A DNA stretch of 64,000 bases from Candidatus Woesebacteria bacterium (lineage in GTDB: Bacteria > Patescibacteriota > Microgenomatia > UBA8517): contig CP065002.1 of the NCBI GenBank assembly GCA_016700095.1, positions 112,463-176,462 of the forward strand, read 5' to 3'. The notes under the pieces were generated by a model, which saw only the letters and a program-made list of their open reading frames with translations, was not told the origin of the DNA and searched no databases. A program made the position numbers and the translations under genes. Shown one piece after another: positions 905 to 6,507 of the stretch; the first letter of the stretch is position 1; the number at the start of each line of letters is the position of its first letter.

Positions 905-1576
905 ATGAGTGTTTCTGACTTTTTGTTTCCTAAAAAGTGTATAACTTGCGGTAGGCAAGGCGTATATGTATGCAGGCAATGCCTGATGAAAGTCAAGTAT
1001 GCGAAATCTATTTGTCCAATGTGTGGGAAGAGTTCAATAGATGGCGTGACACATGTAGCATGCCTAAAACCCTTGGGTATGGATGGGCTTACCTCGTTGT
1101 GGGAATATACAGGGGTAATAAAAAAGGCAATCGGCAAGCTCAAGTTTCAGTTTGCGACAGAAATTGCCAATGAACTAACCAAAGGCTTTGTGATTTCAAT
1201 GAGATCAGCCGATAAACCGTTGCCAATAAATGTTACCTTGATACCGATTCCGCTTCATAGAATTAGGAAAAACTGGAGAGGTTTTAATCAAGTGGAGATT
1301 ATTGGACAACACCTGGCGAAATATTACCGGTGGGGATTTGAACCTGATTTGTTGGTTCGACATGCAAATACGCTCCCTCAATCAAAACTTGCCAAAGATG
1401 AAAGAAGTAAAAACGTGCTTGGGATATTTTCTGTTTCCGAAAACAAGAGTGTGCAAAATGCCAATTTTGTATTGTTGGATGATGTGTGGACAACGGGATC
1501 TACGATGAAAGAGGCGACTAAAGTATTAAAAAGACACGGTTCGGGAAAAGTCTGGGGAATTACCCTGGCTCACTAA
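905..1576 (+). CDS. ComF family protein (double zinc ribbon plus phosphoribosyltransferase domain)
   Basis: N-terminal CxxC...CxxC...CxxC zinc ribbon; C-terminal PRTase motif VLLDDVWTTGST. Confidence 0.75.
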   Translation: MSVSDFLFPKKCITCGRQGVYVCRQCLMKVKYAKSICPMCGKSSIDGVTHVACLKPLGMDGLTSLWEYTGVIKKAIGKLKFQFATEIANELTKGFVISMRSADKPLPINVTLIPIPLHRIRKNWRGFNQVEIIGQHLAKYYRWGFEPDLLVRHANTLPQSKLAKDERSKNVLGIFSVSENKSVQNANFVLLDDVWTTGSTMKEATKVLKRHGSGKVWGITLAH

Positions 1577-2621: not shown

Positions 2622-3635
2622 TTAATAAAGATTGTAACTTATATACGTTCCCTTGCAGGGATGTCCATAGCAAAAACTTGCTTGTAGTTCGGATGGAATA
2701 AAAATTGCCGAACCGATTGTCTCGTTCTCGCGGCAAATGGGATATTCATTGTCATTCGTGTCGGAGAGAATCCGTTTTATATCCTCGTCAGTCATATTGG
2801 TTGTTAACAACGAATATGCTCTTTCATATCGTGCATCCGAACTTTTGGTGTGAAACTTTTCAAGCGGTTTTAACTCATTAGTTAGATAATGATTGGTGTG
2901 CACATACGGTTCGTTAATAATATTTTGAATTCCGAGTTTATCTCCCGCGATTTCAATATTTCTAATTTCATTTCCGCACGCCAAGACATGGTTAAACCCG
3001 GACGCCTTATTGGTATTTCTAATTAACCTTTCGGCTTCATCAAGACTTTTTGTTTCCAATATTGCTCTGGCAACGTAGTTTTTAGGGACACCAATTTGTG
3101 CTGTTTGATAAATATCGTTTATGCATTGAACCAATCCCGCGTTGTTTAACGAAGCGGCGGAACCTGGAATTACAGACATATAGTTAAGTCCAATAAAAGC
3201 AATATTCTCAATTTCAATTTCAAGAATACATATTTCACTCAGTGCGCTAATCGACCAGTCTTCGTTGTGTCCAATGACAAGTTTTCCCTTGTCAAACCCA
3301 GCCACCACGGTGCAATGATCGATATTAGCTGAATGTTTTTTGTCGTGTGCTTCGGCTTCGTCGAACACTTCTCGGTTATTCATGAAAAAATATTCAACAA
3401 GCGGAATACCTGCAGCCTTGGCAATTTCTGTTGTTTCTTTCATTAAATGAGGAAAGAAGTATCTTGTTATATCCAAACATTTTTGGGATTTGGTTAAATA
3501 ACTTTCATAATTAGGAATGGAGCGTCTTCTTTCCTTTATCCTTTGTGTGATTTTATCCCTAAATGTGTTTCCCAAAAATTCACCTACTTTTTCGTAGTTT
3601 CCTGACACTTTGTAGTACGGAAGATTTTTTGTCAT
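2622..3635 (-). CDS. Ntn-hydrolase, peptidase C45 (acyl-CoA:6-APA acyltransferase-like) family
   Basis: CTVVAGFDKGKLVIGHNEDW motif (putative N-terminal nucleophile Cys after processing, plus HNEDW), typical of the C45 / choloylglycine-hydrolase fold. Confidence 0.5.
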   Translation of the reverse strand: MTKNLPYYKVSGNYEKVGEFLGNTFRDKITQRIKERRRSIPNYESYLTKSQKCLDITRYFFPHLMKETTEIAKAAGIPLVEYFFMNNREVFDEAEAHDKKHSANIDHCTVVAGFDKGKLVIGHNEDWSISALSEICILEIEIENIAFIGLNYMSVIPGSAASLNNAGLVQCINDIYQTAQIGVPKNYVARAILETKSLDEAERLIRNTNKASGFNHVLACGNEIRNIEIAGDKLGIQNIINEPYVHTNHYLTNELKPLEKFHTKSSDARYERAYSLLTTNMTDEDIKRILSDTNDNEYPICRENETIGSAIFIPSELQASFCYGHPCKGTYISYNLY

Positions 3636-3736
3636 TTACGCTACATTAGCCTGTTTGGTAAATAAATTCAACACATCAGGGGAAGAATATAAAATTACGA
3701 TGACTAAAACATAAGAAATTAAGAAAAGTTGGAGGT

Positions 3737-3844
3737 GAGCGGAGGAGGTGGGATTCCTTTCGGCTCACTATGTTCGCTCAAGGCAAGCTTCTCATCCCGA
3801 TTTATAAAACAAAATACCTCACACTTTGGTGAGGATTTTTGTTA
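3737..3844. repeat. About 108-nt unit = tRNA-Ser 3'-terminal 18 nt (GCGGAGGAGGTGGGATTC on +) + 63-nt conserved segment + terminator hairpin. Copy A, immediately 3' of tRNA-Ser(GGA).
   Basis: Same unit as the copies at 4861-5175. It begins with an exact duplicate of tRNA positions about 57-74. Confidence 0.85.
3817..3843 (-). terminator. Rho-independent terminator after tRNA-Ser(GGA), bidirectional
   Basis: CCTCAC-ACTTTG-GTGAGG hairpin followed by ATTTTTGTT on +. On the minus strand the same hairpin is followed by UAUUUUGUUUUAU. It recurs in every repeat unit. Confidence 0.5.
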
Positions 3845-3845
3845 G

Positions 3846-3929
3846 CGGAGGAGGTGGGATTCGAACCCACGTAGCCCGTAAGGACTCGGGCTTTCCAAGC
3901 CCGTGCAATTGGCCGCTATGCGACTCCTC
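3846..3929 (-). tRNA. tRNA-Ser(GGA)
   Basis: Hand-folded. Acceptor GGAGGAG/CTCCTCC, D-arm GCA..TGC, anticodon stem CGGGC/GCCCG with loop TTGGAAA (anticodon GGA), long variable arm, T-arm GTGGG-TTCGAAT-CCCAC, discriminator G. CCA is not encoded. Confidence 0.9.
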
Positions 3930-4100
3930 CATTATTATTCAAAAGATGTCGCTCAAGCTTTCGCTTATGCGACTCCTCCAAAACTTATTTACAAATCAAG
4001 AGTCGGACAAGCTTTCGCTTATGCGACTCCTCCAAATCTTTTTTACAAATCAAGAGTCGGACAAGCTTTCGCTTATGCGACTCCTCCAAAACTTATTTAT
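3930..4100. repeat. Tandem repeat, period 54 nt, about 3 copies; each carries the first 13 nt of the tRNA-Ser (rc GCGACTCCTCC..) plus about 41 nt
   Basis: GCTTATGCGACTCCTCC recurs at 54-nt spacing. The intervening sequence is also near-identical (AAACTTATTTACAAATCAAGAGTCGGACAAGCTTTC). Confidence 0.85.
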
Positions 4101-4274
4101 AAAACACTGCTTATATGTCATTAACCTAATATTTATCAAGATATAATTTATTTACTAATATGATCACCTACAAGAATGTTACGTTAGTAAATGTTATAAA
4201 ATTGTTGGTCAATAAATATATACTACTAAAGGTTAACAGGAATGAGGGTATTATATCAAAAAGTGAAGATAAAA

Positions 4275-4736
4275 TTACTTGAGATCATCTTCTTCCATCT
4301 GTTTGTCTTTACCGCTTTTTTTCCATTCGGCAAGTTCTTTGCGTGCAGCTTTCAGCATAGATTGATCTCTTTTTGATGATAGCTTTCTCGTTGCTTGTGC
4401 ATACGGAAACCATTCGCCCTTGGTAAAACCGACAGCTTCTCCTGCACTGGAAAGCTCAATCATTAAATAATACAAATGTCTTTGCGGAACGGTTTTGTCG
4501 TTTATTGTTGTTACTCCACCGGCTCGACCGGCTTCTTCTAAGACTCGTGCGGTCATTCCCGCCTGTTCGCCCATTAGTCTGATTGCGGCTCTTACGGATG
4601 ATTCACCTTTTCTGACAATTGTTTTGGGAAATTCCCACTCACCATCGTCAGATGTTTTAACTAAAAACCAATCATCTTTTTCACCCTTTTGTTTTGCAGT
4701 AACCGTACTTGAAATTAGCACTAAACTTTTATCCAT
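4275..4736 (-). CDS. NUDIX-fold protein with a degenerate NUDIX box
   Basis: GEWEFPKTIVRKGESSVRAAIRLMGEQAG aligns to the GGWEFPGGKxExGE..REL.EELG NUDIX box, but the REx and EE catalytic residues are replaced (RLM, EQ). Embedded between the two tRNA-Ser repeat arrays. Confidence 0.55.
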   Translation of the reverse strand: MDKSLVLISSTVTAKQKGEKDDWFLVKTSDDGEWEFPKTIVRKGESSVRAAIRLMGEQAGMTARVLEEAGRAGGVTTINDKTVPQRHLYYLMIELSSAGEAVGFTKGEWFPYAQATRKLSSKRDQSMLKAARKELAEWKKSGKDKQMEEDDLK

Positions 4737-4860
4737 TGTTGTTATTATACACGAAGTTTGTAAGTTATGAAGCCTGATTGAGGTTTAAGTCTCGTGTTTT
4801 TATGATTCGCTCGTGCAATGTTGGTGGATTGTGTCCACCGAAGTGAGCTTTGATGAACAT

Positions 4861-5200
4861 GGGGCAAGGAGGTGGGATTTCTTTCGGCTCACTATGTTCG
4901 CTCAAGGCAAGCTTCTCATCCCGATGCATAAAACATAAAACTTCACACTTTGGTGAGGATTTTTGTTAGCGGAGGAGGTGGGATTCCTTTCGGCTCACTA
5001 TGTTCGCTCAAGGCAAGCCTCTCATCCCGATACATAAAACTTCACACTTTGGTGAGGATTTTCTTGTTAGCGGAGGAGGTGGGATTCCTTTCGCTCACTA
5101 TGTTCGCTCAAGGCAAGCTTCTCGTCCCGATACATAAAACATAAAACTTCACACTTTGGTGAGGATTTTCTCGTTTGCGGAGGAGGTGGGATTCGCTACA
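4861..5200. repeat. Tandem array of 3 full (about 99-108 nt) units plus one partial unit: tRNA-Ser 3'-terminal 18 nt + conserved 63 nt + terminator hairpin. Lies 3' of tRNA-Ser(GCT).
   Basis: Units at about 4861-4967, 4968-5066 and 5067-5175, with a partial unit at 5176-5194. Each begins GCGGAGGAGGTGGGATT(C/T) (the first copy is GCAAGGAGGTGGG) and ends CACACTTTGGTGAGGATTTT. Confidence 0.85.
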
Positions 5201-5263
5201 CACAAATAAAATTCCTTACTTGTTGTGTCCATCGAACGCCAACTGTGACGCGAACCTCGTGAG

Positions 5264-5348
5264 CGGAGGAGGTGGGATTCGAACCCACGTAGCCGGTAAG
5301 GGCTCAGGATTAGCAATCCTGTGCAATTGGCCGCTATGCGACTCCTCC
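5264..5348 (-). tRNA. tRNA-Ser(GCT)
   Basis: Hand-folded. Same acceptor, D- and T-arms as the GGA isoacceptor. Anticodon stem CAGGA/TCCTG with loop TTGCTAA (anticodon GCT). Long variable arm, discriminator G. Confidence 0.9.
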
Positions 5349-5525
5349 AAATCTTTTTTACAAATCAAGAGTCGGACAAGCTTCCGCTTATGCGACTCCT
5401 CCAAAACTTATTTATAAATCAAGAGTCGGACAAGCTTTCGCTTATGCGACTCCTCCAAAATGTAATCATTGAGGAGAGTGCACAAAGTTCTCACGTAGTG
5501 AGGTTTTTATGCGACTCCTCCTAAA
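5349..5525. repeat. Tandem repeat (period 54 nt, then a variant unit) carrying 3 further copies of the tRNA-Ser 5'-terminal 11-13 nt
   Basis: (AT)GCGACTCCTCC occurs at about 5338, 5392, 5446 and 5512. Units are near-identical to the 3930-4100 array. The last unit contains its own CTCAC-GTA-GTGAG + T5 hairpin. Confidence 0.85.
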
Positions 5526-5742
5526 TTATTTAAAAACGCTTAAAGTAATGCACCAGAAATATTGTTAACTTTACTTCAACTAACGCTTTGGCAAGTCATT
5601 ATACCAAAGTTAAAGACTTATCAGTAGTTTTGAATTTGCTTAAATCAAATTTTGTAAGCAGATAGTTTTAAGCATTTTCATAATCAACCAATTGTTAGTT
5701 TACCAGCAATTTAATTTCTCGAATGGGTAGCAATATTAAGTT

Positions 5743-5780: not shown

Positions 5781-6335
5781 ATGGAAAAGGAAAACGTTAA
5801 GCTTGAAAAACCGGTAGAACAAGAAGATGATATCAAGCGTGTAATTGTTGAGACCCCAAACGAAAAATCGCTTTATAAATGGCGGGGGAGCGCACGAGCT
5901 TTTAAAAAACGTGATCGAGATTTTTGGGTGTCAGTTATTGCCATTGCATCGGTGACCGGTTTTATACTTTTTATTATTGAAGGGATAATTTCTGTAATAC
6001 TTATTATTTCAATCTTGTTTCTATATTACGTTTTGAGCACGGTAGAACCCGGAGAAATCGACTATGAAATTACAAACAAAAGTATTATTATTGCCGGTGA
6101 GAAAAATCCACTAGAGAATTTTATTTGGTTCTGGTTCGGACAAAGTCTTGGAAATGAAGTGTTGGTTTTGGGCTCTGTTAATATGCCCGGCAGACTTGAT
6201 TTGGTTTACAAATTAGAAGATAAAGAGAAATTGCGCAAGGTGCTTTCCCCGTATCTACCGGAACTAACCGATTCTCCAACGAGAACCGATAAAGCGACAG
6301 AATGGTTGTCAAAGAAAATCCCCGCAAATAAATAA
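5781..6335 (+). CDS. Hypothetical membrane protein (2 TM)
   Basis: 184-aa ORF with a hydrophobic core region. No recognisable domain. Confidence 0.5.
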   Translation: MEKENVKLEKPVEQEDDIKRVIVETPNEKSLYKWRGSARAFKKRDRDFWVSVIAIASVTGFILFIIEGIISVILIISILFLYYVLSTVEPGEIDYEITNKSIIIAGEKNPLENFIWFWFGQSLGNEVLVLGSVNMPGRLDLVYKLEDKEKLRKVLSPYLPELTDSPTRTDKATEWLSKKIPANK

Positions 6336-6446: not shown

Positions 6447-6507
6447 CTTAATAAGTATTTCATGTGCTTTCGAGTTAAACATTAACTTACCAGAAAACTT
6501 TTTTAGT

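What the first reader, a model, noticed from the sequence alone, without database searches (positions are those of the whole stretch)
3737..5525. Two paralogous tRNA-Ser genes each embedded in tandem arrays of repeats built from their own 5' and 3' termini
tRNA-Ser(GGA) (3846-3929, minus) and tRNA-Ser(GCT) (5264-5348, minus) share identical acceptor, D- and T-arms. The 5' side of each (higher coordinates on +) carries 3 extra copies of the first 11-13 nt of the tRNA at an exact 54-nt period; each copy is followed by a conserved 41-nt segment containing a GAGTCG...CGACTC stem. The 3' side of each carries one unit (GGA) or 3.3 units (GCT) of about 100 nt. Each unit consists of an exact copy of the last 18 nt of the tRNA (T-loop to discriminator), a conserved 63-nt segment, and a terminator hairpin. 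A degenerate NUDIX gene lies between the arrays. The 18-nt fragment is the part of a tRNA that tyrosine integrases typically use as an att core, so serial integration/excision scars or a tandem att array is one reading. But the material between the cores is only about 80 nt and carries its own terminator, which would also fit an array of small transcribed units (tRNA-terminus-derived sRNAs), or a promoter/terminator-module duplication that adjusts tRNA-Ser dosage. It is not a CRISPR array: the inter-repeat sequences are near-identical, not unique.
Basis: seen in the sequence. Interest (0 to 1): 0.8.

Follow-up and report, generated by a model that had tools for sequence, protein, structure and literature searches.

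The report
Terminus-copy hairpin repeats flanking tRNA-Ser genes
Two serine-tRNA genes of an uncultured Woesebacteria (CPR) genome are flanked by tandem hairpin units that each carry an exact copy of the tRNA's own first 14 or last 18 bases; the downstream ones resemble the little-studied 'tRNA-linked repeats' of E. coli, and the upstream ones appear to be an undescribed counterpart, so this is a real feature of tRNA genes, not scars left by viruses.

Summary
The repeats are real. The tRNAs' first 14 nt occur 8 times and their last 18 nt 6 times in 64 kb (about 0 expected). They are unlikely to be integration scars. Each unit is an imperfect hairpin: one arm is an exact copy of the tRNA terminus (starting at mature +1, or ending at position 73/74), the other its imperfect complement. 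Single units of the same families flank tRNA-Ser and tRNA-Arg genes in other Woesebacteria. Tandem 5' arrays of 2-4 units recur upstream of tRNA-Ser in nine other contigs. Where a promoter is recognisable it lies upstream of the array, so the 5' units are probably leader RNA. The 3' units have the layout of E. coli 'tRNA-linked repeats' (TLRs: tyrT 178-bp repeat/RtT RNA, rrnB TLR), a known class of unknown function. One unit type shares GGATGAGAAGCTT with the tyrT TLR but does not match Rfam RtT. The 5' modules match no Rfam family, and I found no description. One form has covarying stems around an invariant AAC/AAC internal loop, shared by Ser and Arg leaders. Most likely these are co-transcribed terminus-mimic modules, amplified by slippage and exchanged between the two loci. 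Function is unproven.

The parts
3845..3930 (-). tRNA-Ser(GGA)
   Evidence: ARAGORN; Rfam tRNA, 56.1 bits.
5263..5348 (-). tRNA-Ser(GCT). Acceptor, D and T arms are identical to the GGA gene.
   Evidence: ARAGORN; Rfam, 57.8 bits; 90% identity to the GGA gene (D3).
3980..4087 (-). Two 54-nt 5' leader modules of the GGA gene (4034-4087 and 3980-4033). Each consists of the exact tRNA nt 1-14, the hairpin AAGC-GAAA-GCTTG, an imperfect complement (CCGACTCTT) and an 18-nt linker.
   Evidence: Sequence. Each folds as a rod, -19.2 kcal/mol, z -4.2. The four 54-nt units differ at 4 positions, none in a stem.
3931..3979 (-). 49-nt GGA-proximal 5' module. It has the same 5' arm and GAAA loop but a different 3' arm (GAGCGAC) and a 17-nt linker. 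This layout matches the single modules of relatives.
   Evidence: z -5.4; comparison with L029, L036 and L017.
4088..4104 (-). Probable native promoter -10 region (TTTTATAAATAAGTTTT) directly upstream of the GGA array. A 16-nt copy of it forms the end of the 54-nt units; in three of the four units the copy is TGTAAA.
   Evidence: Sequence. The spacing to +1 matches other tRNA promoters in the window and in relatives. Inferred, not tested; the consensus scan did not call it.
5457..5521 (-). 65-nt GCT-distal 5' module of the 'long form': tRNA nt 1-14, then AAA|AAC|CTCAC-TAC-GTGAG|AAC|TTT|G, then TGC ACTCTCCTC and a linker.
   Evidence: z -4.4. It aligns with the long-form modules of L012 (Arg), L099, L186, L198, L203 and L119, with covarying stems around an invariant AAC/AAC loop.
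5349..5456 (-). Two 54-nt 5' leader modules of the GCT gene (5403-5456 and 5349-5402).
   Evidence: Each is 53/54 identical to one unit at the GGA locus but only 50/54 identical to its own neighbour, and the order is reversed between the loci. This indicates exchange of at least 2 units between loci.
3739..3844 (-). TLR-like 3' unit of the GGA gene ('B1' type). It consists of a linker, the terminator hairpin CCTCAC-CAAAGT-GTGAGG with a T-run (3817-3834), CGGGATGAGAAGCTTGCCTTGAGCGAACATAGTGAGC (3763-3799), and an exact 18-nt copy of the tRNA 3' end (3739-3756).
   Evidence: The same family occurs in L010, L022 and L106.
5177..5262 (-). 'Type A' 3' element of the GCT gene: TCAC..CGCG, an imperfect complement of the tRNA 3' end, TTCGAT, an inner hairpin, GC, and an exact 18-nt copy of the tRNA 3' end (5177-5194).
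   Evidence: Homologous elements follow tRNA-Ser genes in at least 14 other loci. The named structure is 74.6% paired against 27-42% in slid controls, and 10 pairs change on both sides.
4863..5176 (-). Three tandem B1-type TLR-like units (5070-5176, 4969-5069, 4881-4968), ending in a degenerate copy of the tRNA 3' end (4863-4880). Each has a weakened terminator hairpin (5147-5164, 5040-5057, 4941-4958) and the conserved core (5093-5129, 4993-5029, 4887-4923).
   Evidence: (D2).

Best explanation
The arrays are tandem amplifications of a class of tRNA-flanking hairpin modules, probably acting as RNA, that is widespread in Woesebacteria and related CPR bacteria. A 5' module lies between the promoter and the tRNA. 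It is a rod-shaped hairpin. Its 5' arm is an exact copy of the tRNA from mature position +1 to the D-loop (nt 1-14 for Ser, 1-21 for Arg). Its apex is a conserved cassette, and its 3' arm is an imperfect complement. In many modules it therefore imitates the acceptor stem plus D-stem. A 3' module lies after the tRNA. Its 3' arm is an exact copy of the tRNA from the T-loop to position 73/74, and this arm pairs with an imperfect complement further upstream. That is the layout of E. coli tRNA-linked repeats (TLRs).

Shown here: the anatomy, the recurrence in other genomes, the covariation of the stems, and the upstream position of the promoter in relatives.

Inferred: the modules are transcribed with the tRNA, and the 3' units are reached by read-through of weak terminators, as in E. 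coli rrnB. Because they duplicate the tRNA's end determinants, they would be cut out by the tRNA-end processing enzymes (RNase P at the module's +1; RNase Z or an RNase E/Y-type cut after 73/74). This would yield small stable hairpin RNAs. What those RNAs do is not known.

Copy number probably changes by slipped-strand mispairing or unequal recombination between the 14-nt and 18-nt direct repeats. In this genome a block of at least two units was also copied between the two tRNA-Ser loci.
For: Anatomy:
- All 24 5' modules examined fold as rods (z -2.5 to -5.7), and the 3' arm changes with the acceptor sequence of the local tRNA.
- Long-form cassette: 91.8% of cells paired against 16-42% in slid controls; covariation 0.348 against 0.100 (0/500 shuffles); invariant AAC/AAC loop. 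It is shared by Ser and Arg modules, and a U.G pair is present in 8 of 9.
- Type A 3' element: 74.6% paired against 27-42%; 10 pairs changed on both sides; 0/500 shuffles.
- Copies start at +1 and end at 73/74, or run through CC/CCA where the gene encodes it.

Recurrence:
- Among 159 tRNAs in syntenic Woesebacteria loci, the 3' end is copied downstream in 26 against 4 upstream, and the 5' end is copied upstream in 11 against 2 downstream. The wrong-side cases and a few of the right-side ones are neighbouring paralogues.
- 0 of 84 tRNAs in viral contigs have such copies.
- Tandem 5' arrays precede tRNA-Ser in L099, L103, L106, L119, L136, L179, L186, L198 and L203.

Leader position: a consensus extended -10 lies upstream of the module or array in L012, L017, L029, L036, L099, L198 and L203, and module-to-tRNA linkers are mostly 7-26 nt.

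Known analogue:
- E. coli TLRs end in 18-19 bp identical to the 3' end of the upstream tRNA or rRNA, with 1-5 per locus. The rrn TLRs are transcribed by terminator read-through and processed (PMC8144298).
- I verified the tyrT/tyrV and rrnB layouts and the helix between the terminal copy and its complement in the Rfam RtT consensus.
- GGATGAGAAGCTT is shared between the window's B1 unit and the tyrT TLR (1 of 2000 shuffles score as high).

Dynamics:
- Near-identical units occur within arrays.
- Between-locus identity of 53/54 exceeds within-locus identity of 50-52/54.

Folding the whole GGA locus keeps the modules as separate hairpins and keeps most of the tRNA cloverleaf (anticodon, variable and T arms; the D-stem is not formed and most of the acceptor stem is kept).
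Against: - No transcript data, so co-transcription, processing and any role of released RNAs are all inferred.
- The 3' outer helices are imperfect. Only 69% of cells are Watson-Crick, and the mismatches look unselected (A.C 26, T.C 23, C.C 12, G.U 11).
- Type A elements fold better as the antisense strand in 15 of 15 cases, so the functional strand is not settled.
- In the window's main B1 units the complement arm has shrunk to 5 bp.
- The modules are patchy: roughly 5-20% of tRNA-Ser genes in relatives carry one. That fits dispensable or neutral elements.
- In L026 and L006 the exact arm follows the local tRNA but the complement arm does not. This argues that pairing is not always maintained.
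- The window units do not match Rfam RtT (positive control).
- The window's 54-nt hairpin pairs tRNA nt 3-10 rather than mimicking the acceptor stem.
Confidence: 0.5

Rival explanations
1. The units are neutral debris. Partial tandem duplications of tRNA genes and their spacers arise by slippage or unequal crossing-over, decay internally, and sometimes re-amplify. The hairpin character would be inherited from the tRNA's own acceptor, D and T stem complementarity, with no function.
For: - Patchy distribution among relatives.
- Young, near-identical units within arrays.
- Decaying complement arms with unselected-looking mismatches.
- The 3' part of B1 units and of the E. coli tyrT unit contains pieces resembling the variable arm or T-arm (by eye; E. 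coli leader D-arm similarity z about 3.6).
- E. coli TLRs still have no demonstrated function after more than 40 years.
Against: - The interior cassettes are not tRNA-derived, yet they are conserved across species and between Ser and Arg modules, with compensatory changes around an invariant loop.
- The inner hairpin of type A covaries at 4 of 4 pairs.
- Several 5' modules are true palindromes of tRNA nt 1-21 or 3-14, including nucleotides that are unpaired in a tRNA. Internal deletion of a tRNA copy would not give this.
- The heterogeneous old array in L203 keeps the terminal copy while the interiors have diverged.
- Variation among the window units avoids the stems (0 of 28 stem positions against 4 of 26 others, p=0.047).
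Confidence: 0.22
2. The units are attachment-site scars. Repeated integration and excision of tRNA-Ser-targeting elements by tyrosine integrases left tandem att cores with short remnants between them.
For: - The 18-nt copy (T-loop to 3' end) is the segment such integrases typically duplicate (general knowledge; partial tRNA genes from integration are discussed in PMC9897764).
- The same 19-mer occurs in 40 viral contigs. In 24 it is not at the end of a called tRNA-Ser, so some could be attP or attR. These were not inspected further.
Against: - The flanking genes are housekeeping and no recombinase domain was found in 30 window ORFs scanned against Pfam.
- The interval between copies is 68-89 nt and carries no cargo.
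- Gene order is the same as in relatives without arrays.
- Copies of the 5' end lie upstream, and also at tRNA-Arg genes.
- Interiors are conserved, covarying hairpins.
- Identity stops at the tRNA end.
- The core motif is not enriched next to tRNAs in viral contigs.
Confidence: 0.04
3. The units are DNA-level mobile or templated hairpin elements. Small palindromic modules would spread between tRNA genes as single-stranded hairpins or by recombination. One arm would be regenerated from the target and the other carried from the donor.
For: - In L026 the Arg(CCG) module's exact arm matches the local tRNA, but its complement arm is complementary to an Arg(GCG)-type 5' end (GCACCTGTAG).
- The L006 gct and cga type A elements share one complement arm, while the exact arm differs to match each tRNA.
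- The same cassette occurs at Ser and Arg genes.
- At least two units were exchanged between the window's loci.
- Type A is at least as stable on the antisense strand.
Against: - No transposase or recombinase is associated.
- No copies occur away from tRNA genes: all 9 long-form cores and 14 of 19 short-form cores lie within 260 nt upstream of a same-strand tRNA.
- A target duplication running exactly from the insertion point to the mature tRNA end is not a known transposition outcome.
- Ordinary gene conversion with the adjacent tRNA explains the same asymmetry.
Confidence: 0.1
4. The arrays are an assembly artefact: mis-assembled or over-expanded repeats.
For: Tandem repeats of 54-106 nt are near short-read length, and the window's own genome was not found in the searchable collections, so no read-level check was possible.
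Against: - The units carry distinct variants in a consistent order, and the flanks are unique.
- Comparable arrays occur in nine other contigs from unrelated samples and assemblers.
- E. coli has the same kind of array in finished genomes.
Confidence: 0.02

Closest known systems
E. coli tRNA-linked repeats (TLRs): the tyrT/tyrV 178-bp repeat (RtT RNA, rttR/tpr; Rfam RF00391) and the rrnA/B/D TLRs (RrA/B/F)
   Same: - They lie directly downstream of a tRNA or rRNA gene on the same strand.
- Each unit ends in 18-19 nt identical to the gene's 3' end.
- There are 1-5 tandem units per locus.
- An internal segment is complementary to the terminal copy (helix in the RtT consensus).
- The rrnB TLR and the window's B1 unit share the order: gene end, terminator, spacer, copy of the gene end.
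- GGATGAGAAGCTT follows the complement arm in both the tyrT TLR and the window's B1 unit.
- Function is unknown in both (PMC8144298).
   Different: - The host is a CPR bacterium, not an enterobacterium.
- The units are shorter (86-107 nt against 150-178).
- The window does not match the RtT covariance model (control 133-137 bits).
- At least three unrelated interior families exist (A, B1, B2).
- No CCA is encoded, so the copy ends at position 73/74.
- There is a mirror-image 5' counterpart, which PMC8144298 does not mention for E. coli. I found only a weak D-arm similarity in the tyrT leader.
Direct repeats of tRNA 3' segments left by tyrosine-integrase elements (prophages, genomic islands, CIME-like remnants)
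   Same: A direct repeat of the T-loop-to-3'-end segment lies downstream of the tRNA gene, and several copies can accumulate.
   Different: There is no integrase, no cargo, and only 68-89 nt between copies. The interiors are conserved and structured. Equivalent copies of the 5' end lie upstream. Local gene order is unchanged relative to relatives.
tRNA-like processing signals and spacer-derived RNAs (plant mitochondrial t-elements, mascRNA-type tRNA mimics, E. coli 3'ETS-leuZ). The first two are from general knowledge; 3'ETS-leuZ is as cited in PMC8144298.
   Same: These are non-tRNA segments of a precursor that either imitate tRNA end structure and are recognised by RNase P or RNase Z, or are spacer pieces released from tRNA precursors as small RNAs. 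This is the proposed mode of action here.
   Different: Those elements are not exact copies of the neighbouring tRNA's own terminus, are not tandemly amplified, and do not flank the tRNA on both sides. Processing of the modules described here has not been tested.
tRNA-mimic operators bound by aminoacyl-tRNA synthetases (thrS leader of E. coli; general knowledge)
   Same: A leader hairpin imitates part of a cognate tRNA. The modules here retain elements I recall as identity elements: acceptor pairs and C11:G24 for Ser, and the D-loop through A20/A21 for Arg.
   Different: The thrS operator mimics the anticodon arm and sits in the synthetase mRNA. These modules mimic the acceptor and D region and sit in the tRNA's own leader. 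No binding data exist.

Membership tests
E. coli-type tRNA-linked repeats (TLR) | Located immediately downstream of a tRNA or rRNA gene, on the same strand | tested here: met
   The units start directly after each tRNA-Ser gene on the minus strand.
E. coli-type tRNA-linked repeats (TLR) | The last 18-19 bp of each unit are identical to the 3' end of the upstream gene | tested here: met
   An exact 18-mer occurs 6 times (2 in the tRNAs, 4 in units) plus one degenerate copy; 0.02 expected. The defining feature is as stated in PMC8144298 and was verified in E. coli.
E. coli-type tRNA-linked repeats (TLR) | One to five units in tandem per locus | tested here: met
   1 unit at GGA. At GCT there are 1 type A unit and 2 complete B1 units, plus a third B1 unit that ends in a degenerate copy of the tRNA 3' end.
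E. coli-type tRNA-linked repeats (TLR) | Internal segment pairs with the terminal copy (helix in the Rfam RtT consensus) | tested here: inconclusive
   The RtT consensus has the helix. Type A elements have it: 74.6% paired, with covariation. The window's B1 units keep only GGGAT:ATCCC. B1 relatives L010 and L022 have longer arms.
E. coli-type tRNA-linked repeats (TLR) | Sequence and structure homology to the family (Rfam RF00391 RtT) | tested here: not met
   No RtT match in window 3600-5650 even at E<=5. The model scores 133-137 bits on the E. coli units. Only a 13-nt identity is shared.
E. coli-type tRNA-linked repeats (TLR) | Transcribed with the upstream gene and processed | not testable with these tools
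   No transcript data. Weakened terminator hairpins in the GCT units are compatible with read-through.
Integrase att duplications at tRNA genes | Direct repeat of the tRNA 3' segment bounding an inserted element | tested here: inconclusive
   The repeats are present, but they bound only 68-89 nt.
Integrase att duplications at tRNA genes | Integrase gene or foreign cargo (or its remnant) between or beside the repeats | tested here: not met
   The neighbours are a C45 acyltransferase, NUDIX, a conserved 184-aa ORF, GNAT, CYTH and DnaG. No recombinase domain was found in 20 further ORFs. The synteny is shared with array-free relatives.
CRISPR array | Conserved repeats separated by unique spacers | tested here: not met
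   The inter-repeat sequences are 93-98% identical among the four 54-nt 5' units, and the best B1 pair is 95% identical.
Partial tRNA pseudogenes | The unit aligns to contiguous tRNA sequence beyond the terminal copy | tested here: not met
   No tRNA call by ARAGORN or Rfam on any unit. The interiors are cassettes shared by Ser and Arg modules and unrelated to tRNA interiors. Weak resemblance of the B1 3' part to the variable arm was judged only by eye.
MITE-like transposable elements | Copies dispersed at many unrelated sites with short target duplications | tested here: not met
   There are no other copies in the 64-kb window. All 9 long-form cores and 14 of 19 short-form cores in 1.29 Mb of held sequence lie within 260 nt upstream of a same-strand tRNA.

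The most novel reading that the evidence does not exclude
The 5' leader modules and the three 3' families may together form an undescribed system of tRNA-terminus mimics in CPR bacteria, a two-sided relative of E. coli TLRs. Each module would present the cognate tRNA's own acceptor and D-arm (or acceptor and T-arm) determinants as a decoy or recruitment site for a tRNA-binding factor such as RNase P, RNase Z, the CCA-adding enzyme, the cognate synthetase, or a tRNA-targeting toxin. Copy number would be tuned by slippage. The invariant AAC/AAC internal loop would be the protein-recognition element. If the link to E. coli TLRs (GGATGAGAAGCTT next to the complement arm) reflects homology, TLRs would be an ancient, cross-phylum feature of stable-RNA operons.
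Probability: 0.3. Interest if true: 0.75.

Novelty: new variant of a known kind. Interest (0 to 1): 0.55.

Why it matters
In the only account I found (PMC8144298), tRNA-linked repeats are described for E. coli, first reported in 1978, with no assigned function. My full-text search for the term returned only two papers. Finding the same layout in a CPR bacterium matters for four reasons:
- There are several structured families, and a mirror-image 5' version sits inside tRNA leaders.
- This suggests that copying a stable RNA's own terminus into its flanks is a general, recurrent solution or by-product of tRNA-operon biology, not an enterobacterial oddity.
- It gives the TLR question comparative material: covarying stems, an invariant loop, and natural copy-number variants.
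- It provides testable candidates for processing signals or tRNA-mimic decoys in organisms whose RNA processing has been little studied.

It also gives annotators a rule: terminal tRNA fragments next to tRNA genes in CPR genomes are not by themselves evidence of integrated mobile elements.

Tried and rejected
- Exact look-up of the window's NUDIX protein in the contig index: not on record.
- DNA scans for the window's own 3' core in genome contigs and its 5' unit in metagenome contigs: no hits. The lineage itself is therefore unsampled and strain-level copy-number comparison was impossible.
- RNAalifold on MAFFT alignments gave little for the short-form 5' modules (7 pairs, weak covariation) and nothing for type A. 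I therefore named the structures myself and used pair counting with controls.
- Rfam at permissive thresholds on the window and on five related loci found only tRNA, tmRNA and sub-threshold chance matches (group II D5-like, sX4, plastid motifs).
- Coding reading of the units: the mini-ORF MRSLP* is shared by the window and L010 with three synonymous differences. However, it has no Shine-Dalgarno sequence, the start codon is lost in one window copy, the frame is not kept in type A, and the peptide diverges in L022, L106 and E. coli tpr. Rejected as the main explanation.
- Origin by reverse transcription of mature tRNA or tRNA fragments: rejected, because copies lack CCA wherever the gene lacks it.
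- Hammerhead-like reading of GAUGAG...GAA: the core nucleotides do not fit (by inspection).
- Viral-contig scan for the long-form cassette: 15 hits, essentially all chance or coding, none next to a tRNA.
- Most of the 120 metagenome hits to the tandem GTCGCATAAG pattern were unrelated minisatellites, coding repeats or CRISPR-like arrays. Only those followed by a tRNA-Ser were used.
- Strand test by folding energy: not decisive for the 5' modules (16 of 24 favour the sense strand, p=0.09), and it favoured the antisense strand for type A. That is also what transition decay of a G-rich arm would give.

Full report
**1. What is in the sequence**

The window is chromosomal DNA of a Candidatus Woesebacteria (CPR/Patescibacteria) bacterium.
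- The NUDIX protein between the arrays is 100% identical to an NCBI Woesebacteria protein from a 1.27-Mb contig.
- The surrounding genes are housekeeping: tmRNA, SmpB, a ComF-like protein, a C45 acyltransferase, GNAT, CYTH, DnaG and sigma-70.
- ARAGORN and Rfam place tRNA-Ser(GGA) at 3845-3930(-) and tRNA-Ser(GCT) at 5263-5348(-).
- The two genes differ only in the anticodon arm and variable arm.

On the tRNA strand, GGAGGAGTCGCATA (tRNA nt 1-14) occurs eight times. Four copies lie at each locus, one of which is the tRNA's own 5' end. Shuffles of the window give none. GAATCCCACCTCCTCCGC (G57 to position 74) occurs six times, against 0.02 expected. A degenerate seventh copy lies at 4863-4880.

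Laid out in register:
- The GGA gene is preceded by two 54-nt units and a 49-nt variant. It is followed by one 106-nt unit.
- The GCT gene is preceded by a 65-nt unit and two 54-nt units. It is followed by an 86-nt element of a different kind ('type A'), two complete units of 101-107 nt, and a further 106-nt unit that ends in the degenerate copy.

Several details do not: the period is not exact, one unit in each 5' array and the first GCT 3' unit are of other types, and the NUDIX gene is intact and conserved.

**2. What a unit is**

Every unit folds as an imperfect hairpin. One arm is the exact copy of the tRNA terminus, and the other arm is an imperfect complement.

The 54-nt 5' unit has four parts:
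- tRNA nt 1-14;
- AAGC-GAAA-GCTTG;
- CCGACTCTT;
- an 18-nt linker whose last 16 nt repeat the sequence just upstream of the GGA array (TTTATAAATAAGTTTT), the probable -10 region.

In three of the four 54-nt units that -10 copy reads TGTAAA instead of TATAAA. Most units therefore probably lack an active promoter of their own.

The B1-type 3' unit also has four parts:
- a linker;
- a terminator hairpin with a T-run;
- CGGGATGAGAAGCTTGCCTTGAGCGAACATAGTGAGC;
- the 18-nt copy of the tRNA 3' end.

Type A consists of TCAC..CGCG, an imperfect complement of the whole 19-nt tRNA end, TTCGAT, an inner hairpin, and the copy.

**3. Relatives**

The window's own lineage is not in the searchable collections. 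I therefore fetched syntenic loci through NUDIX homologues of 45-68% identity. These came from metagenome contigs and from 31 GTDB species genomes. The gene cluster Ser(CGA)/Arg(GCG)/184-aa ORF/Ser(GCT)/NUDIX/Ser(GGA)/Ser(TGA) is conserved, with rearrangements.

In many relatives the tRNA abuts its neighbour with no repeats. For example, in L001 Ser(GCT) ends 3 nt before NUDIX. But single extra copies of the termini are common and directional. Of 159 tRNAs with full flanks:
- 26 have their 3' end copied within 160 nt downstream, against 4 upstream;
- 11 have their 5' end copied upstream, against 2 downstream.
The wrong-side cases, and a few of the right-side ones, are neighbouring paralogous tRNAs.

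tRNA-Arg genes also carry 5' copies. None of 84 tRNAs on viral contigs has such copies, including 26 tRNA-Ser genes, most of which end in this same 19-mer.

The window's 'unique' 68 nt after the GCT gene is homologous to the type A elements of at least 14 other loci.

It mostly returned unrelated repeats. Eight contigs, however, have 2-4 tandem 5' modules directly upstream of a tRNA-Ser (L099, L103, L106, L119, L136, L179, L186, L198).
- L179 also has a 3' array.
- L198 carries the same tRNA-Ser(GGA) acceptor, D and T arms as the window (it differs in the anticodon stem and variable arm). It has two 5' modules and a type A element.
- L203, one of the closer NUDIX relatives (63% identity), has three heterogeneous modules before Ser(GCT) and one before Arg(GCG).

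Arrays are therefore recurrent, not a peculiarity or artefact of this assembly.

**4. Are the hairpins more than inherited complementarity?**

5' modules:
- All 24 fold as rods with z-scores of -2.5 to -5.7.
- The 3' arm changes with the local acceptor sequence. Examples: GGAGAGG with CTTCTCC, GGTGAGG with CCTCACT, GCCTCTG with CAGAGG, GCACCTGTAG with CTACAAGTGC.

A 'long-form' apex cassette, AAG|AAC|stem-loop|AAC|CTTG, is shared by Ser modules of six contigs, by an Arg module (L012), and by the window's 65-nt unit. On a nine-sequence alignment:
- 91.8% of cells pair, against 16-42% with slid partners;
- 13 cells changed on both sides;
- the covariation score is 0.348 against 0.100 (0/500 shuffles);
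- the AAC/AAC internal loop is invariant;
- a U.G pair, favourable only on the tRNA-sense strand, is present in 8 of 9.

Type A elements:
- the structure I named is 74.6% paired, against 27-42% in slid controls;
- 10 pairs changed on both sides;
- all four inner-hairpin pairs covary.

Among the window's four 54-nt units, the four variable positions all fall outside the stems (p=0.047). These results favour selection on structure.

Counter-evidence:
- The outer helices of type A are only 69% Watson-Crick, with unselected-looking mismatches.
- Type A folds better as antisense RNA in 15 of 15 cases. Transition decay of a G-rich arm would also produce this.
- In L026 and L006 the exact arm follows the local tRNA while the complement arm does not.
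- The exact arm is thus the best-kept part. Either it is the functional determinant, or it is continually converted by the adjacent tRNA.

**5. Boundaries and position**

The 5' copies begin at mature +1 in nearly all cases. They end in the D-loop, after A14 in Ser and A21 in Arg. The 3' copies begin at C56/G57 in the T-loop and end at 73/74, or run through CC or CCA where the gene encodes those. Since CCA is absent wherever the gene lacks it, the copies derive from the gene and not from mature tRNA.

In relatives, a consensus extended -10 (TGnTATAAT-like) sits a few to about 30 nt upstream of the first module (L012, L017, L029, L036, L099, L198, L203). Module-to-tRNA linkers are mostly 7-26 nt. 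Ordinary tRNA genes of the clade have the same -10 about 10-13 nt before +1. The 5' modules are therefore leader sequence.

Some 3' elements lie between adjacent tRNAs on the same strand, separated by 11-24 nt and therefore probably co-transcribed (L017, L018).

Folding the whole GGA locus keeps each module as its own hairpin. It keeps the anticodon, variable and T arms and most of the acceptor stem of the tRNA, but not the D-stem. It also pairs the outermost 5' copy with the outermost 3' copy.

**6. Comparison with what is known**

From memory I recalled the E. coli tyrT 178-bp repeat, and I tested it. In K-12, the 19-nt 3' end of tRNA-Tyr occurs six times across tyrT-tyrV-rttR/tpr, with a 178-nt spacing. 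The literature names the class tRNA-linked repeats (PMC8144298):
- there are 22 TLRs at ten loci, 1-5 per locus;
- each ends in 18-19 bp identical to the 3' end of the upstream tRNA or rRNA;
- no function is known;
- the rrnA/B/D TLRs are transcribed by terminator read-through, processed, and bind Hfq and CsrA;
- the authors suggest that the repeat is a processing signal.

The rrnB TLR has the same order as the window's B1 unit: gene end, terminator, spacer, copy of the gene end. The Rfam RtT consensus contains the helix between the complement arm and the terminal copy. GGATGAGAAGCTT follows the complement arm in both the tyrT TLR and the window's B1 unit, and only 1 of 2000 shuffles scores as high.

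Membership by sequence fails, however. RtT scores 133-137 bits on E. coli but gives no match in the window. I therefore file the 3' arrays as TLR-like in layout and probably in mode of action, not as members of the enterobacterial family.

For the 5' modules I found no Rfam match and no description in four further literature searches. The tyrT leader shows only a weak partial D-arm similarity.

**7. The att reading**

Integrases do use this part of tRNA genes. The same 19-mer is present on 40 viral contigs, in 24 of them not at the end of a called tRNA-Ser. At this locus, however:
- there is no recombinase among the neighbours or among 20 integrase-sized ORFs in the window;
- there is no cargo;
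- the local gene order around the arrays is the same as in relatives without arrays;
- there is a 5' mirror image;
- the interiors are conserved and structured.
I consider this reading refuted for this locus.

**8. How the arrays formed**

- Units within arrays elsewhere are identical or nearly so (L099, L106, L186).
- In the window each GCT-locus 54-mer is 53/54 identical to one GGA-locus 54-mer, but only 50/54 identical to its own neighbour.
- The order is reversed between loci: alpha-beta at GCT and beta-alpha at GGA.
- A block of at least two units was therefore copied between the loci after the two variants had diverged.
- The GGA B1 unit is closest (95%) to the last GCT unit.

Slippage or unequal recombination between the 14- and 18-nt direct repeats, together with inter-locus conversion, accounts for this. 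That is an inference from the pattern, not an observation of events.

**9. Verdict**

The feature is real and well beyond chance. It is best described as tandemly amplified terminus-copy hairpin modules in the leader and trailer of tRNA-Ser genes. The 3' side is a new variant of a known but obscure kind (TLRs). The 5' side appears undescribed. The mechanism I favour is co-transcribed mimics of the tRNA ends that are released by tRNA-end processing. It rests on anatomy, comparative data and the E. coli precedent, not on transcript data. A substantial share of probability remains with neutral duplication debris.

Noticed in passing
window 5781-6335 (+): A 184-aa ORF is divergently oriented from the tRNA-Ser(GCT) array. 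It has no Pfam or NCBIfam match but is conserved in the same position within the tRNA-Ser/Arg cluster of other Woesebacteria (for example L001 5298-5864, L202 111-665).
   Followed up: partly
window 3600-3845, compared with L001 7065-7150 and L004 7242-7326: In several relatives tRNA-Ser(TGA) directly follows tRNA-Ser(GGA). In the window that position is occupied by the B1 unit and no Ser(TGA) gene is present in the 64 kb. Where the genome encodes it could not be checked.
   Followed up: no
window 6453-6464 (+), just downstream of tRNA-Arg(GCG): The motif AAGTATTTCATG in the Arg-Ser(CGA) spacer resembles the conserved inner part of type A elements (CAAGTAAAGTATTTCATGC in L012, L010 and L198). 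This suggests a trailer motif shared by tRNA genes of the clade. It looks like a ribosome-binding site plus ATG, but the reading frame is not conserved.
   Followed up: partly
window 3785-3797 (-) and equivalents in the GCT units (two exact, one with a single mismatch); E. coli L040 about 1165-1177 (-): A 13-nt identity, GGATGAGAAGCTT, links the B1 unit and the E. coli tyrT TLR, at the same place next to the complement arm. In E. coli it contains the start of the annotated 29-aa tpr ORF. In the window and in L010 it starts a mini-ORF MRSLP* whose three differences are all synonymous.
   Followed up: partly
window 4941-4958, 5040-5057, 5147-5164: The terminator-like hairpins inside the three GCT-side units have a C.A mismatch on the tRNA strand but a G.U pair on the opposite strand. 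The scan therefore calls them only as plus-strand terminators. The GGA-side hairpin (3817-3834) is perfect on both strands.
   Followed up: partly
window 4275-4736 (-): The NUDIX protein between the arrays has weak, sub-threshold NCBIfam similarity to RNA pyrophosphohydrolases (RppH/YtkD type). It is held between tRNA-Ser genes in most of the relatives fetched, though the Ser isoacceptor on its upstream side varies.
   Followed up: partly
L041-L080 (viral contigs): The exact 19-nt tRNA-Ser 3' end, CGAATCCCACCTCCTCCGC, occurs on 40 viral contigs. In 16 no tRNA is called anywhere in the stretch (possible attP or attR), and several matches lie in tRNA-Ser genes at contig edges (possible prophage borders). 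Integrase adjacency was not examined.
   Followed up: no
L216 about 720-750 (viral contig IMGVR_UViG_3300029813_000619): This is the only viral hit with a well-formed long-form cassette (AAG|AAC|CTCCGC-TTTCA-GCGGAG|AAC|CTTG, flanked by ATGGAGA/TTTCCAT). No tRNA is called nearby on the short stretch held.
   Followed up: no
L040 1624-1700 (E. coli tyrT leader): The tyrT leader contains TTCCCGATAAGGGAGCAGGCCAGTAAA. This aligns to tRNA-Tyr nt 8-40 with the D-loop shortened (score 24 against a shuffle mean of 14.3, sd 2.7). It may be a faint 5' counterpart of the modules described here.
   Followed up: partly
L004 5971-5984 and L005 3286-3299: A short-form cassette (ATAAGCAGAGCTTG) lies just downstream of tRNA-Ser(GCT) rather than upstream of a tRNA. 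This is an exception to the upstream rule and was not examined.
   Followed up: no
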